DNA from: a virus | Strand: one strand, 5' to 3' | Virus genome (UHGV): UHGV-0326656 | Length of the DNA: 41,916 bases | In this document: positions 10,715-13,548 of the stretch, in pieces | How the letters are laid out: each line of letters opens with the position of its first letter | Position numbering within the stretch: the first letter of the stretch is position 1 | Notes under the pieces: generated by a model | Told to the model about the DNA's origin: nothing | The model's database searches: none | The model's input: the letters and a program-made list of their open reading frames with translations, nothing else | Program-made: the position numbers and the translations under genes

Positions 10715-11077
10715 TTAACGACCTGCTGCGCGGAGTTTTCCGTCAGGTTCACCGGCAAGAGTCAGCAACTGTCCCTGGTCTTCCTGCAGAATAGTCAGGC
10801 GACCACCGCGATTGACATACATCGGCGTTTCGGTGGTGTCTTCTTCGGAAATTTTCCCGCGGTTAGTCGGGCGAACATATGAGAGTTTGTGTTTGATTTT
10901 CACTCGGTTCTCATCAAACGGTTCGATTTCCAGGTTGAGCGAGACCTTACCTTTGGTTTTCGTGTTCATCACACCGGAAGCGACTTCACTGAGAACTGCG
11001 CCGATTTTGGTTTCAAATACGCCGCCGTCCAGCTCCCCGATAAATGCCTGCACATCAGTACTGCGTTCGCTAGCCAT
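10715..11077 (-). CDS. hypothetical phage protein, 120 aa
   Basis: Start at MASERSTDVQ... with GAGGAG 7 nt upstream; the 100-codon upstream extension in the ORF track is GC-rich, Arg/Cys-rich and looks non-coding. Confidence 0.6.
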   Translation of the reverse strand: MASERSTDVQAFIGELDGGVFETKIGAVLSEVASGVMNTKTKGKVSLNLEIEPFDENRVKIKHKLSYVRPTNRGKISEEDTTETPMYVNRGGRLTILQEDQGQLLTLAGEPDGKLRAAGR

Positions 11078-11545
11078 TTTGCTGCTCCTCATCATATCGA
11101 CCCTGCAAGGTCGGTTAGTTTCTCCACAAAACAGAGAAGAACACCTGCGGTGGCTGCCGCCCGGATGGATTGGGTTATGAGCCCGTCGTCCGGTGATGCT
11201 CTTCTCTGTTTTGTAAAAAGGACGGTACCAGCCGGAAGCAAGGGTACAAGCTGGTACCGCCAAGACTACACACAGCATAAAGTTGTGGTGCCGGGTGCCT
11301 CCCGGTGCCTGGCGAAGGTTGCACACCAGGCGGGTGGGTATCCACAGAAGGTCGACTGTCAGCCTCAACCTTAACCCGCGTGCGCTGAGCCGCATTCACC
11401 ACAACGCTAAGGATTCTCTCTGGTTGAAAATACTTAGCTGTTATGTGCCTGCTTTTAGCCACATCAGGCGAGGTGGACCTAGTTATTCCCCAACAACAAG
11501 GATTCGGTTAATCTGGTTATCCCCAACAACGCAAAAGGAAAAGAA

Positions 11546-11980
11546 ATGTCCGGTAATATCTATACGCTGTACAAATCCCACTGTGAAAATGTTGGAAAGT
11601 ATCGGGGCATTGAAATCAGTGGGGTAGTGTCATCAGTCGAAATAAGCAAAGTTGAATCAAGGGCAACATTACTTACTCTTCTGGACCTTGTCTTACATGA
11701 GCACCGGAAGAAATTCGGCACTCCCTATAATCAGTTGAATGGGAAAAAGGCTCTGGTTCACCTTATTCTGATGAAGCATCACTGGATGCCAAAACAGATT
11801 AATGAGATGAAATTTGATGAACTTCTTCTTTCAATTCAGGATGAACTCACACTTGATAAAATAAGCGTAACCGCCCAGAAATTTTTAGATTATCGAGACT
11901 GGAGATCACAAATTCATCACTTTGATGATTTTGACGAAAATGAATGGGATCCTAATTTGTCTGCACAATATCTAAAGTAA
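11546..11980 (+). CDS. hypothetical protein, 144 aa, AT-rich moron in the immunity region
   Basis: AAGGA ribosome-binding site; oriented against the leftward early operon; preceded by two TTATYCCCCAACAAC direct repeats. Confidence 0.55.
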   Translation: MSGNIYTLYKSHCENVGKYRGIEISGVVSSVEISKVESRATLLTLLDLVLHEHRKKFGTPYNQLNGKKALVHLILMKHHWMPKQINEMKFDELLLSIQDELTLDKISVTAQKFLDYRDWRSQIHHFDDFDENEWDPNLSAQYLK

Positions 11981-12158
11981 CATCCTGTGATAAAACCGTG
12001 ATTTCCTGATCCAGTTTTTTTAAGGAGTCTATTGTTTCCTGTCGATAAGACAGCACTTCACGAAGCTGGTTTATAGCTGCCAGCTTCTTTGTCATCCACT
12101 CATAAATTTCCTCATCTGTGTAGCCAGGCGCGACGATTTTGGGTTCTGTTTTGTGCAT
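11952..12158 (-). CDS. hypothetical small protein, 68 aa, first gene downstream of the putative pL
   Basis: ATG at 12158 preceded by GAGGAGA at 6-nt spacing; the TTG start in the ORF track lies inside that ribosome-binding site. Confidence 0.55.
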   Translation of the reverse strand: MHKTEPKIVAPGYTDEEIYEWMTKKLAAINQLREVLSYRQETIDSLKKLDQEITVLSQDVTLDIVQTN

Positions 12159-12195
12159 TTCACATCTCCTCAAGTTATCAGTTACTTGTTGATGG

Positions 12196-12236
12196 GGACC
12201 AGATTGTTAAAGAGCTAAGCGTCCTGTAGGGCGCTT
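12196..12236 (-). promoter_or_regulatory. boxA-like element (GCTCTTTAACAA) with adjacent hairpin; candidate nut-like site; same hairpin plus T-run reads as a + strand terminator
   Basis: Minus strand: hairpin AGCGCCC-TACA-GGACGCT, then TAG, then CTCTTTAACAA, which matches the remembered rrn boxA TGCTCTTTAACAA at 12 of 13. Confidence 0.4.
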
Positions 12237-12406
12237 TTTTGTTGCTAACGAATCATCCTGGACTTCATATGCCCCAGGCGGCTACTTCGTGGGCGTCCTG
12301 CCTGTTCGTTTTTGACATTTACTGACTGCTTACGACACATGCACCGTGTTGCAACCAGATTTTGTTGTAATCCTGTAGTTGGTCTGGAACAAAAGATAAA
12401 ATTAAA

Positions 12407-12443
12407 TTGCGAGATATGCAAGTTATATTTGCGAGATATGCAA
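12407..12443. promoter_or_regulatory. oL-like operator pair, two copies of TTGCGAGATATGCAA 22 bp apart
   Basis: Identical 15-mers at 12407-12421 and 12429-12443; same TTGCG-N5-GCAA pattern as 13211-13225 beside cI; reverse complement gives TTGCAT -35-like hexamers for a leftward promoter. Confidence 0.55.
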
Positions 12444-12454
12444 ATTTATAGGTA

Positions 12455-12477
12455 ATAAAAAGCCACCTTTCGGTGGC
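12455..12477 (-). terminator. rho-independent terminator downstream of cI
   Basis: Minus strand GCCACC-GAAA-GGTGGC followed by TTTTTA, about 20 nt after the cI stop. Confidence 0.6.
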
Positions 12478-12497
12478 CGATGGATGGGATATTGAGG

Positions 12498-13190
12498 TTA
12501 ATTATGTCTCTTAAGGGTTTGCGACTGACTGATTAAGACCTTTCCAAAGACCATGAATCGGTGTTCGTTTTCGCTAGTAATTCCCCATTCACGGTAAATC
12601 TGGTTATCAGAAATCACCAGCAGTTTGTCAGGAATCATTTGAAGTCTTTTAACGTATATTTTGTCATCAAAACCAAAGACATATATACCATCACCATCAA
12701 ACTGATTGATGCTGACATCAACGAAGATGAGATCTCCTGGCTCAATGGTTGGACACATACTGTCCCCACGAACGTTGATAACTTTGATGTGATTGGCTGG
12801 TCGTCCGCCGAACATTGATACAGCATTATCAGTTCTGTATTCGATGGCATGAATCACATCAATGACATCACCGCCCTGGATAAGGCCATTTCCCGCACTG
12901 GCACTGATATCCAGCATTTCAATACGGAACACATCCTTCACCTGCGCAACATCCTCATTGTTACTGTTTTTATATACAGTATTACTTTTGTGGGCAGAGG
13001 TAAAGAGATCAGCAATATCAACACCTAAGCTCTTGGCAATATTACTCAGTGTTTGTTCGGTAAATTGTTTTTGCTTACCCGTTTCTAAGCGCGAGATGTT
13101 CGCCGCATCTACTCCTATCGCTTCAGCGAGATCGGCGATTTTCATGTTCTTCGCTTGGCGAAGTTGTCTGACTCGGTTTCCTATGTTCAT
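12498..13190 (-). CDS. cI: CI-type repressor (N-terminal HTH, C-terminal S24 LexA-like peptidase domain)
   Basis: N-terminal HTH (VRQLRQAKNMKIADLAEAIGVDAANISRLETGK) and C-terminal ...INVRGDSMCPTIEPGDLIFVD...KIYVKRL with Ser/Lys dyad; divergent from cro. Confidence 0.9.
   Translation of the reverse strand: MNIGNRVRQLRQAKNMKIADLAEAIGVDAANISRLETGKQKQFTEQTLSNIAKSLGVDIADLFTSAHKSNTVYKNSNNEDVAQVKDVFRIEMLDISASAGNGLIQGGDVIDVIHAIEYRTDNAVSMFGGRPANHIKVINVRGDSMCPTIEPGDLIFVDVSINQFDGDGIYVFGFDDKIYVKRLQMIPDKLLVISDNQIYREWGITSENEHRFMVFGKVLISQSQTLKRHN
12962..12981. promoter_or_regulatory. near-consensus LexA (SOS) box inside the cI coding sequence
   Basis: TACTGTTTTTATATACAGTA = CTGT-N8-ACAG with AT-rich spacer, about 18 of 20 to the consensus TACTGTATATATATACAGTA; falls in the cI interdomain linker. 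Confidence 0.5.
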
Positions 13191-13210: not shown

Positions 13211-13225
13211 TTGCGTGATAAGCAA
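13211..13225. promoter_or_regulatory. oR-like operator in the cI-cro intergenic region
   Basis: TTGCGTGATAAGCAA differs from the two 12407-12443 copies at two positions; further ATTGCG/CGCAAT repeats follow up to the cro start. Confidence 0.5.
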
Positions 13226-13287
13226 ATCAACTTGCGCAAAATAATTGCGTGAAATAACATGCATAACGCGCAATATTTGGAGGGCGT

Positions 13288-13548
13288 ATGCAATCACCAT
13301 TACGAAATGTGCGTAAGGCGCATGGTTTCACTTTGCAGCATGTTGCTGCGGGTGTTCAAGTCAATCCAGCGACGTTGAGTCGTATTGAGAGGCTGGAGCA
13401 GATTCCATCTATCGAGCTTGCAGAACGTTTAGCCAATTTTTTTAAGGGTGAAGTCAGCGAAATGCAGATTCTTTATCCGGCACGTTTTCAATCTAGCCAA
13501 AACCAGAATGGGTTTAAACCACAGGAACAGGAGGTGAACCGTGGGTAA
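13288..13548 (+). CDS. cro: Cro-like HTH regulator
   Basis: 86 aa, HTH (FTLQHVAAGVQVNPATLSRIER), GGAGG ribosome-binding site, divergent from cI. Confidence 0.8.
   Translation: MQSPLRNVRKAHGFTLQHVAAGVQVNPATLSRIERLEQIPSIELAERLANFFKGEVSEMQILYPARFQSSQNQNGFKPQEQEVNRG

What the first reader, a model, noticed from the sequence alone, without database searches (positions are those of the whole stretch)
12174..12500. Putative pL/oL region: duplicated CI operator, boxA-like element and dual-function hairpin
Two identical 15-mers TTGCGAGATATGCAA spaced 22 bp apart match the TTGCG-N5-GCAA site beside cI at oR, giving a self-consistent operator definition for this repressor. Their reverse complements supply TTGCAT -35 hexamers for a leftward promoter. 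Downstream on that transcript are a hairpin and GCTCTTTAACAA (rrn boxA-like, 12 of 13), then a 68-aa gene that is not Arg-rich, so antitermination here may be N-independent (boxA/Nus or put-like).
Basis: partly seen in the sequence, partly recalled or inferred. Interest (0 to 1): 0.5.

Follow-up and report, generated by a model that had tools for sequence, protein, structure and literature searches.

The report
Prophage left operator, promoter, leader RNA
This stretch is the repressor-controlled leftward early promoter of an N-less lambda-like prophage, and its transcript leader carries a highly conserved, unannotated folded RNA plus a ribosomal-RNA-type boxA that may explain how such phages read through terminators without an N protein.

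Summary
Two identical 15-mers lie 22 bp apart just past the cI terminator. Two related sites lie between cI and cro. Forty natural haplotypes with an identical CI vary almost only in the central 5 bp (TTGCA-N5-CGCAA), as expected of operators.

The only leftward promoter candidate, TTGCAT-17-TATCTT, is weak (7 of 12) but invariant.

The boxA-like GCTCTTTAACAA is not chance. The exact 12-mer recurs downstream of the same leader in many genera, with or without the hairpin, and never on the opposite strand. The hairpin is a canonical terminator for the opposing strand and weak on the leftward RNA.

- 23 invariant bases and two helices, with compensatory changes at 10 of 11 pairs.
- 174 distinct copies across Enterobacterales.
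- Present in 1865 of 5426 complete E. coli genomes, including prophage e14 of K-12.
- Usually starts at about +6 to +9 of the pL transcript.
- Absent from Rfam and not an HK022-type put RNA.
- No N-like gene accompanies it.

N-independent antitermination by this RNA plus boxA is my best inference. It is untested.

The parts
12461..12478 (-). Intrinsic terminator of cI: GGCCACCGAAAGGUGGCU followed by UUUUUAU
   Evidence: Terminator scan. Folds at -13.2 kcal/mol, z = -4.1. Annotated as a terminator in SfII. Nearly invariant in 40 haplotypes.
12429..12443 (.). OL2, the distal operator: TTGCGAGATATGCAA (leftward sense TTGCA-TATCT-CGCAA)
   Evidence: Exact repeat. Among phages with an identical CI, the central 5 bp carry 5.2 variant cells per position against 0.2-0.4 for the outer pentamers.
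12407..12421 (.). OL1, the proximal operator. It overlaps the -35 hexamer of pL.
   Evidence: outer pentamers 0-0.4, centre 1.2 variant cells per position. mEp460 has TTGCGCATTATGCAA at the same place.
12393..12421 (-). Candidate pL: -35 TTGCAT (12421..12416), 17-bp spacer, -10 TATCTT (12398..12393). Inferred start near 12386.
   Evidence: Best leftward candidate in 12300-12470, 7 of 12 matches. The -10 is invariant in 40 haplotypes and conserved in mEp460. The start site is inferred, not shown.
12314..12392 (-). Initial leader segment specific to this immunity module. It separates pL from the conserved RNA by about 75 nt.
   Evidence: The mosaic boundary with mEp460 lies at about 12338 and with Kati and SfV at about 12312-12318.
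12244..12313 (-). Conserved structured leader RNA. P1 pairs 12310..12305 with 12252..12247. The invariant strand AGGCAGGACGCCCACGAAGUAGC lies at 12304..12282. P3 pairs 12278..12274 with 12261..12257. The loop GGCAUAUGAAGU lies at 12273..12262, followed by an AUGA linker.
   Evidence: 94.9% of cells pair, against 64% in shuffles and 19-44% with slid partners. Ten of 11 pairs show compensatory changes. RNAalifold gives the same helices. Covariance-model score 91.3 bits, and this is the only copy in the window. 174 distinct copies, with G.U 27 against A.C 6, favouring this strand. No Rfam match.
12217..12242 (.). Strand-asymmetric hairpin with an A-run (T-run on the plus strand). It is a canonical intrinsic terminator for rightward transcripts and a weak hairpin with a C.A mismatch on the leftward RNA.
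   Evidence: Terminator scan, plus strand. Folds at -12.1 kcal/mol (plus) against -7.5 kcal/mol (minus). A-run, hairpin and boxA are conserved together as a cassette in many contexts.
12204..12216 (-). boxA-like AGCUCUUUAACAA, matching rrn boxA at 12 of 13. The exact 12-mer GCUCUUUAACAA spans 12215..12204.
   Evidence: With up to 1 mismatch it recurs within 300 nt downstream of the leader RNA in 11 of 82 and 10 of 51 distinct contexts, and in none on the antisense strand. It also occurs without the hairpin in Xenorhabdus (L238), Kluyvera (L284) and locus L337.
11952..12171 (-). Shine-Dalgarno GAGGAG (12171..12166) and the first leftward gene, 68 aa, acidic, function unknown (phrog_1744)
   Evidence: Annotated as a hypothetical protein in E. 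coli genomes.
13211..13225 (.). oR site next to cI (TTGCGTGATAAGCAA). It overlaps a candidate pRM -35.
   Evidence: Invariant in 79 contigs apart from one variant. The pRM assignment comes from reading the sequence only.
13259..13273 (.). oR site next to cro (minus-strand TTGCGCGTTATGCAT)

Best explanation
The interval is the left operator and early-left promoter (oL/pL) and the 5' leader of an N-less SfII/SfV/e14-type lambdoid prophage.

Shown by sequence and comparison:
- After the cI terminator lie two 15-bp inverted-repeat operators (TTGCA-N5-CGCAA), 22 bp centre to centre.
- The proximal operator covers the -35 of a weak, conserved leftward promoter.
- The leader is a mosaic of three parts: an immunity-specific segment, a 64-70 nt structured RNA that is near-universal in this class of phage, and a hairpin-boxA cassette.

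Inferred:
- CI dimers bind OL1 and OL2 cooperatively and block pL.
- After induction the nascent leader RNA folds and acts on the transcription complex in cis, as a put-like processive antiterminator.
- The rrn-consensus boxA recruits NusB-NusE and the other Nus factors.
- RNA polymerase thereby resists Rho, and perhaps intrinsic terminators, over about 870 untranslated nt. That stretch includes the antisense of a convergent gene and an sRNA-like element with its own terminator. Polymerase can then reach the early-left genes, xis and int.
- The hairpin mainly stops the convergent rightward transcript before it enters pL and cI.
For: Operators and promoter. CI domains.

Phage identity and lack of N; PMC3851460; no Arg-rich first ORF in 77 loci.

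The RNA is real.

Position of the RNA:
- It lies 100-180 nt past the repressor gene in SfV, ST64B, ZF40, YeP1, AH07 and Eeyore. In SPN3UB it lies about 170 nt past cI. In mEp237, PHB10 and the Klebsiella phage other genes lie in between.
- A sigma70-like -10 ends a modal 12-15 nt before helix P1 in 127 of 226 upstream contexts.

Modularity: the same RNA is joined to 54 different downstream sequences. The only protein family shared by nearly all loci (75 of 77) is the upstream CI-like repressor, so any partner is probably host-encoded.

boxA recurs on the sense strand only, with and without the hairpin.

Need for antitermination: a convergent gene at 11546-11980 (plus strand), and a full-length STnc100-like match ending in a hairpin and U-run at 11435..11212 (minus strand), lie before the next leftward genes.

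Against: - No experiment bears on any step.
- pL matches the consensus at only 7 of 12 positions.
- The RNA has no detectable similarity to HK022 or HK639 put. Its architecture differs, and it has no second copy in the pR operon.
- Its fold is not thermodynamically exceptional (z = -0.6).
- boxA accompanies it in only 13-20% of distinct contexts, so boxA cannot be required for its function.
- Two possibly relevant papers could not be read: Roberts et al. 2007 on SfV termination-based immunity, and King et al. 2011 on new put RNAs.
Confidence: 0.55

Rival explanations
1. The conserved leader RNA is not an antiterminator. It acts on the transcript itself, for example as a 5'-terminal stability or processing element, or as a binding site for a host RNA-binding protein that sets the level of early-left mRNA.
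For: It sits at the extreme 5' end. It works with any downstream gene. There is a single copy per phage, and none in the pR operon. It has no similarity to put.
Against: A mere protective hairpin would not need 23 invariant unpaired bases and an invariant loop across 174 variants. The repeated association with boxA, a transcription-elongation signal, points to the elongation complex.
Confidence: 0.25
2. The leader works as an attenuator or an RNA-based immunity system, as in P4 CI RNA or P1 c4. The invariant strand and the hairpin compete for pairing, so transcription stops at the hairpin unless this is prevented.
For: The octamer CAGGACGC occurs both in the invariant strand and as the invariant 3' arm of the hairpin, which keeps a C.A mismatch on the leftward RNA. 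[quoted passage not shown] SfV carries this RNA in its pL leader.
Against: The hairpin lacks a U-run on the leftward strand and is weak. Most copies of the RNA have no hairpin or terminator after it. An 8-nt repeat within 80 nt is not statistically remarkable. No Rfam C4-like match was found.
Confidence: 0.12
3. The hairpin-boxA cassette is only a terminator for the convergent rightward gene. The boxA resemblance is carried along passively.
For: The hairpin is a textbook terminator on the plus strand, and its T-run (the A-run on the minus strand) is conserved.
Against: The exact 12-mer is conserved in cassettes whose flanks differ. It also occurs after the leader RNA with no hairpin at all in Xenorhabdus (L238), Kluyvera (L284) and locus L337. 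It is never found on the antisense strand of the same regions.
Confidence: 0.12
4. The two 15-mers are not CI operators, but a chance duplication or sites for another protein.
For: One contig (L159) has lost one copy, showing that the repeat can recombine. No binding data exist.
Against: All four matches in the window flank cI. The variation pattern is that of a dimer site. The outer bases are kept in mEp460 while the centres differ.
Confidence: 0.04

Closest known systems
Lambda, P22 and 434-type oL/pL (tandem CI operators overlapping the early-left promoter)
   Same: An HTH plus S24 repressor. Inverted-repeat operators of one consensus on both sides of cI. Two turns of helix between the oL sites. 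An operator over a promoter hexamer. pL directly after the cI terminator.
   Different: Only two oL sites, both at or upstream of -35 and none over -10. The consensus TTGCA-N5-CGCAA is not one I know from studied phages. The promoter is weak by consensus. oR shows two clear sites, not three.
Ribosomal RNA operon antitermination (boxB-boxA-boxC leader; NusA, NusB, NusE, NusG, SuhB, S4) and its uses at suhB and CRISPR arrays
   Same: boxA matches at 12 of 13. The order is hairpin then boxA, as in rrn (from my own knowledge). A long untranslated RNA lies downstream, which Rho would otherwise terminate.
   Different: This is a phage mRNA operon. boxC was not examined. Nus dependence is untested. 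boxA is present in only a minority of related leaders.
HK022 and HK639 put RNAs (cis-acting antiterminator RNAs that bind the RNA polymerase beta' zinc-binding domain)
   Same: About 65-70 nt, at the 5' end of the pL transcript of lambdoid phages that lack N. Modular with respect to downstream genes. Highly conserved, as expected of an RNA that binds a host machine.
   Different: No sequence or covariance-model similarity. It has one closing helix, a long invariant single strand and one hairpin, instead of two long stems in a V shape (PMC9378689). It has a single copy, with none after pR.
Lambda nutL (boxA plus boxB, bound by N)
   Same: boxA next to a hairpin in the pL leader, upstream of the first early-left gene.
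   Different: The order is reversed. boxA is the strong rrn form rather than lambda's CGCUCUUA. The hairpin has no GNRA-like pentaloop. There is no N gene.

Membership tests
Lambdoid CI-operator switch (oL/pL) | Repressor with an N-terminal HTH and a C-terminal S24 self-cleavage domain | tested here: met
   Pfam HTH_3 (E = 1e-11) and Peptidase_S24 (E = 6e-19). PHROG transcriptional repressor.
Lambdoid CI-operator switch (oL/pL) | Repeated inverted-repeat sites of one consensus on both sides of cI, with conserved outer half-sites and a free centre | tested here: met
Lambdoid CI-operator switch (oL/pL) | An operator overlaps a functional sigma70 promoter that reads away from cI | tested here: inconclusive
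   TTGCAT-17-TATCTT is the best candidate and its -10 is invariant. It scores only 7 of 12 and is not called by the scan.
Lambdoid CI-operator switch (oL/pL) | CI binds the sites and represses pL | not testable with these tools
   Needs EMSA or footprinting, and reporter assays.
Lambda-type N/nut antitermination | An N-like arginine-rich protein encoded just downstream of pL | tested here: not met
   The first gene has 2 Arg in 68 aa. No ARM-bearing first ORF in 77 related loci. SfII, SfV and SfIV are reported to lack N (PMC3851460).
Lambda-type N/nut antitermination | boxA followed by a boxB hairpin with a GNRA-like pentaloop | tested here: not met
   The hairpin precedes boxA and has a C.A mismatch.
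rrn-type boxA / Nus-factor antitermination | Consensus boxA (UGCUCUUUAACAA) on the transcribed strand of a leader | tested here: met
   12 of 13. The exact 12-mer is conserved in independent contexts, on the sense strand only.
rrn-type boxA / Nus-factor antitermination | Dependence on NusB, NusE and SuhB, and protection from Rho | not testable with these tools
   Needs genetics or in vitro transcription.
HK022-type put RNA | Sequence and structure homology to putL or putR | tested here: not met
   Model R1 finds nothing in HK022 or HK639. A put profile finds nothing in the window.
HK022-type put RNA | Copies in both the pL and pR operons | tested here: not met
   One copy in the window; the next best match scores 13.6 bits. 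HK639 is itself annotated with only a putL-like RNA.
HK022-type put RNA | A structured RNA at the 5' end of the pL transcript of an N-less lambdoid phage | tested here: met
HK022-type put RNA | Promotes terminator read-through in cis and is blocked by rpoC zinc-binding-domain mutations | not testable with these tools
   Needs reporter assays in rpoC Y75N-type hosts.
Any Rfam 15 family | A covariance-model match over 12244-12313 | tested here: not met
   No match at gathering score in the window. None at E <= 10 in 11000-12600 over this stretch.

The most novel reading that the evidence does not exclude
The 64-70 nt leader RNA is a second, structurally unrelated class of cis-acting RNA that makes E. 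coli RNA polymerase terminator-resistant. It would act alone or with a consensus boxA and the Nus factors. It would be the general substitute for N/nut in the very common SfV, ST64B, e14 and Gifsy-like prophages of Enterobacterales.
Probability: 0.35. Interest if true: 0.8.

Novelty: new variant of a known kind. Interest (0 to 1): 0.6.

Why it matters
- It gives an operator definition for one of the commonest E. coli prophage immunity types. 446 viral contigs encode a relative of this CI, and the best 80 are essentially identical to it.
- It identifies two concrete cis elements, a covariation-proven leader RNA and a consensus boxA, as candidates for how lambdoid phages without N express their early-left genes. 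A 2025 paper still answers that question only by analogy to HK022.
- The RNA is unannotated, absent from Rfam and mis-annotated as small 'hypothetical proteins' in some phage records.
- It is present in a third of complete E. coli genomes and in prophage e14 of K-12, so it can be tested with standard genetics.

Tried and rejected
- **Rfam.** Gathering and permissive scans gave nothing at the element.
- **HK022 or HK639 put homology.** Rejected.
- **A coding reading.** A 31-codon Lys/Arg-rich ORF (MCRKQS...) overlaps the RNA. I rejected it because the helices covary and because its ATG (about 12342) lies in the immunity-specific segment that SfV and Kati lack.
- **Terminator-type riboswitch.** Rejected, because no consistent terminator follows the RNA and the distance to the first gene varies.
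- **A conserved phage-encoded partner protein.** Only the upstream CI-like repressor is shared by nearly all loci.
- **Non-enterobacterial matches to the invariant 21-mer** (Streptomyces, Delftia, Reyranella and others). Those I translated (14 loci) lie in open reading frames, 12 of them carrying a YFVG[FI]LP motif, and the covariance model gives all these hits only 21-32 bits. They are not the RNA.
- **Thermodynamic tests of the leader fold** were uninformative.
- **Literature.** Roberts, Allison and Verma 2007 (J Gen Virol 88:3187), Allison et al. 2002 (SfV genome) and King et al. 2011 (J Bacteriol 193:5784) are not held. A text search for the invariant sequence found nothing. My last paper search was wasted on an unspecific term.

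Full report
**What the window is.**
- cI (12498-13190, minus strand) encodes an HTH_3 plus Peptidase_S24 repressor. cro (13288-13548) and a CP76/YmfL-type cII-like gene follow on the plus strand.
- The region is 99% identical to Shigella phage SfII over the parts it shares. It is mosaic with SfV, SfIV, mEp460 and phage Kati.
- The full 661-bp stretch around the finding occurs in 95 complete E. coli genomes. Parts of it occur in about 1700.
- SfII, SfV and SfIV are reported to have no N, cII or cIII homologues (PMC3851460).

**The observation.**
- The two exact 15-mers lie at 12407-12421 and 12429-12443.
- The only two other matches with up to 3 mismatches in the window lie in the 97-bp cI-cro gap. 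That corresponds to about 0.0035 expected by chance, and P of about 6e-6.
- The boxA-like 13-mer lies at 12204-12216 on the minus strand, and the hairpin at 12217-12236.
- A separate hairpin at 12478..12461 is the cI terminator.

**Operators and promoter.** Eighty viral contigs encode an essentially identical CI (99-100% identity). They supply 53 distinct pL-region haplotypes, of which 40 align without gaps.
- Variation falls in the central 5 bp of the distal site (5.2 variant cells per position) and in the 7-bp spacer (3.6).
- The outer pentamers (0-0.4), the proximal site (centre 1.2) and the hexamer TATCTT (0) are nearly fixed.
- mEp460, about 90% identical here, has TTGCGCATTATGCAA and TTGCGAGATATGCAA 24 bp apart, and TTGCGCGTTAAGCAA at oR. 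The ends are kept and the centres are free.

This is the signature of a dimer-binding operator, TTGCA-N5-CGCAA in leftward sense.

The proximal site provides TTGCAT as the -35. TATCTT follows 17 bp downstream. This is the best leftward candidate in 12300-12470, but it scores only 7 of 12 and the scan did not call it. The start near 12386 is therefore inferred.

At oR there are two clear sites 48 bp apart. An 'inside-out' palindrome lies between them, and I could not assign it.

**The leader is a mosaic**.
- The immunity module ends near 12338.
- A 60-70 nt segment (12245-12315) is identical in SfV, SfII and Kati, although both flanks differ.
- The hairpin-boxA unit and the 68-aa gene form another module.

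**The conserved RNA.** A distant BLAST of the leader found the 60-70 nt segment, always unannotated, in phages of many genera. These include Salmonella (ST64B, SPN3UB, SEN34), Pectobacterium (ZF40), Yersinia (YeP1-3), Pantoea (AH07), Citrobacter and Klebsiella, plus mEp237.
- *Position.* It lies 100-180 nt beyond the repressor gene, on the same strand, in SfV, ST64B, ZF40, YeP1, AH07 and Eeyore. It lies further away, with other genes in between, in mEp237, PHB10 and a Klebsiella phage.
- *Abundance.* A scan with its invariant 22-mer returned at least 120 viral contigs with one copy each.
- *Structure.* Fifty-nine diverse copies align without gaps (A1). The outer helix P1 and the hairpin P3 pair in 94.9% of cells, against 64% in shuffles and 19-44% with slid partners. 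Compensatory changes occur at 10 of 11 pairs. RNAalifold finds the same helices.
- *Diversity.* Across 174 distinct copies there are 25 different P1 and 29 different P3 helices. The 23-nt strand AGGCAGGACGCCCACGAAGUAGC and most of the loop do not vary.
- *Strand.* G.U outnumbers A.C by 27 to 6, which favours the leftward RNA.
- *Caveat.* The invariance of the 23-nt strand is partly imposed by the way copies were collected, through an exact 21-22-nt pattern.

**Distribution and placement.**
- In one genome per species, the full element (70-93 bits) is found throughout Enterobacterales. One hit each is in a Pseudomonas and a Chryseobacterium assembly.
- GC-rich hits elsewhere are coding coincidences.
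- 1865 of 5426 complete E. coli genomes carry it, with up to four copies and never an annotation.
- K-12 derivatives carry it in prophage e14 between ymfK (cohE) and ymfJ, downstream of an SfV-type pL.
- Where a sigma70-like promoter is recognisable (127 of 226 upstream contexts), its -10 ends a modal 12-15 nt before P1. The RNA therefore begins at about +6 to +9. In this window's immunity module the distance from the -10 is 82 nt.
- The RNA is joined to 54 different downstream sequences, with no consistent terminator after it.
- No N-like first gene accompanies it. No protein partner is shared by nearly all loci except the upstream CI-like repressor.
- The window has a single copy.

**Relation to known RNAs.**
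- No Rfam family matches.
- HK022 put RNA is about 70 nt, forms two stems, starts at +3 of pL and binds the beta' zinc-binding domain (PMC9378689).
- My covariance model finds nothing in HK022 or in HK639, whose annotated putL-like RNA is plainly HK022-like. A put profile finds nothing in the window.
- The element is therefore not a member of the put family, although it occupies the same place in the same kind of phage.
- A 2025 study of an N-less lambdoid phage, whose CI resembles that of mEp460_4F5 (a carrier of this RNA), could only suggest a put-like mechanism (PMC12315714).

**boxA and the hairpin.**
- With up to 1 mismatch, GCTCTTTAACAA follows the RNA within 300 nt in 11 of 82 distinct viral contexts and 10 of 51 distinct genomic contexts. 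It never appears on the antisense strand of the same regions.
- It is usually preceded by an A-run and the hairpin AAGCGCCC-loop-GGACGCUU. In Xenorhabdus (L238), Kluyvera (L284) and locus L337 it follows the RNA with no hairpin. boxA is therefore selected for itself.
- On the plus strand the hairpin is a canonical terminator (-12.1 kcal/mol with a T-run). On the leftward RNA it has a conserved C.A mismatch, no U-run and -7.5 kcal/mol.
- It probably stops the convergent ECs1072-family transcript (gene 11546-11980, plus strand) and lets pL transcripts pass.

**Why antitermination would be needed.**
- After the 68-aa gene, the leftward transcript runs antisense through the convergent gene.
- It then crosses a near-threshold, full-length STnc100-like sRNA match ending in a hairpin and U-run (11435..11212, minus strand; 43.4 bits against a cutoff of 47).
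- Only then does it reach the next leftward genes and xis/int.
- That is about 870 untranslated nt, the situation in which boxA-Nus complexes protect rRNA and CRISPR transcripts from Rho (established knowledge).

**Verdict.**
- The oL/pL assignment is well supported in silico.
- boxA is real.
- N-independent antitermination is a reasonable inference, but nothing here tests it.
- The most valuable result is the leader RNA. Its existence and structure are secure. Its function is unknown, and I rate a put-like role at about 0.35-0.4.

Noticed in passing
window 11212-11435 (minus strand): Full-length match to Rfam RF02076 (STnc100 sRNA), just below threshold: 43.4 bits against 47, E = 1e-7. Its 3' end has a DicF-like hairpin and U-run. 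Relatives annotate this stretch as a 'frameshifted' or 112-226-aa hypothetical protein (SfII_35, Kati CDS0006), which is probably wrong.
   Followed up: partly
window 11484-11530: Direct repeat GTTAT(T/C)CCCCAACAAC, two copies about 32 bp apart, just upstream of the plus-strand ECs1072-family gene (11546-11980). It is a possible regulator binding site for that accessory gene.
   Followed up: no
window 12291-12298 and 12218-12225 (minus strand): The octamer CAGGACGC occurs in the invariant strand of the leader RNA and again as the invariant 3' arm of the hairpin before boxA. There it enforces a conserved C.A mismatch. Alternative pairing is possible.
   Followed up: partly
window 13235-13249: Between the two clear oR sites lies CGCAAAATAATTGCG, a palindrome with the operator half-sites in the opposite ('inside-out') orientation, rather than a third canonical operator.
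   Followed up: no
L339 2501-2571 (E. coli K-12-type chromosome, prophage e14, between ymfK/cohE and ymfJ): e14 carries an SfV-type cI terminator and pL, and the leader RNA (72.6 bits, a variant with a 1-nt insertion). The element can therefore be studied in K-12.
   Followed up: partly
L010, L012, L014, L046 and others: about 10-60 nt after the leader RNA in Gifsy/Rac-like (recE, kil) prophages: A second conserved leader stretch, AACGCGCAGCAGG-N7-ACGUUCCGCUGGCCGGCGAUAAG. Its small hairpin covaries (CGCUGGCCGGCG, CGCCAGCCUGGCG, CGCUAGCCAGCG). A conserved small ORF beginning MIDFARKP follows.
   Followed up: no
L159 (viral contig with an identical CI): One of the two 15-mer operators plus the spacer is deleted, exactly 22 bp. 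The tandem repeat evidently recombines in nature.
   Followed up: no
L338 37910-37969 (phage HK639): The record annotates an 'M3-like RNA' after the cII-like gene, in addition to the putL-like RNA. I did not see an equivalent in this window, where the cII-like gene overlaps the next ORF.
   Followed up: no
window 12062-12087 (plus strand), inside the 68-aa gene: A second terminator-like hairpin on the plus strand (GAAGCTGG...CCAGCTTC followed by TTTGTC). It could also end the convergent ECs1072-family transcript.
   Followed up: no
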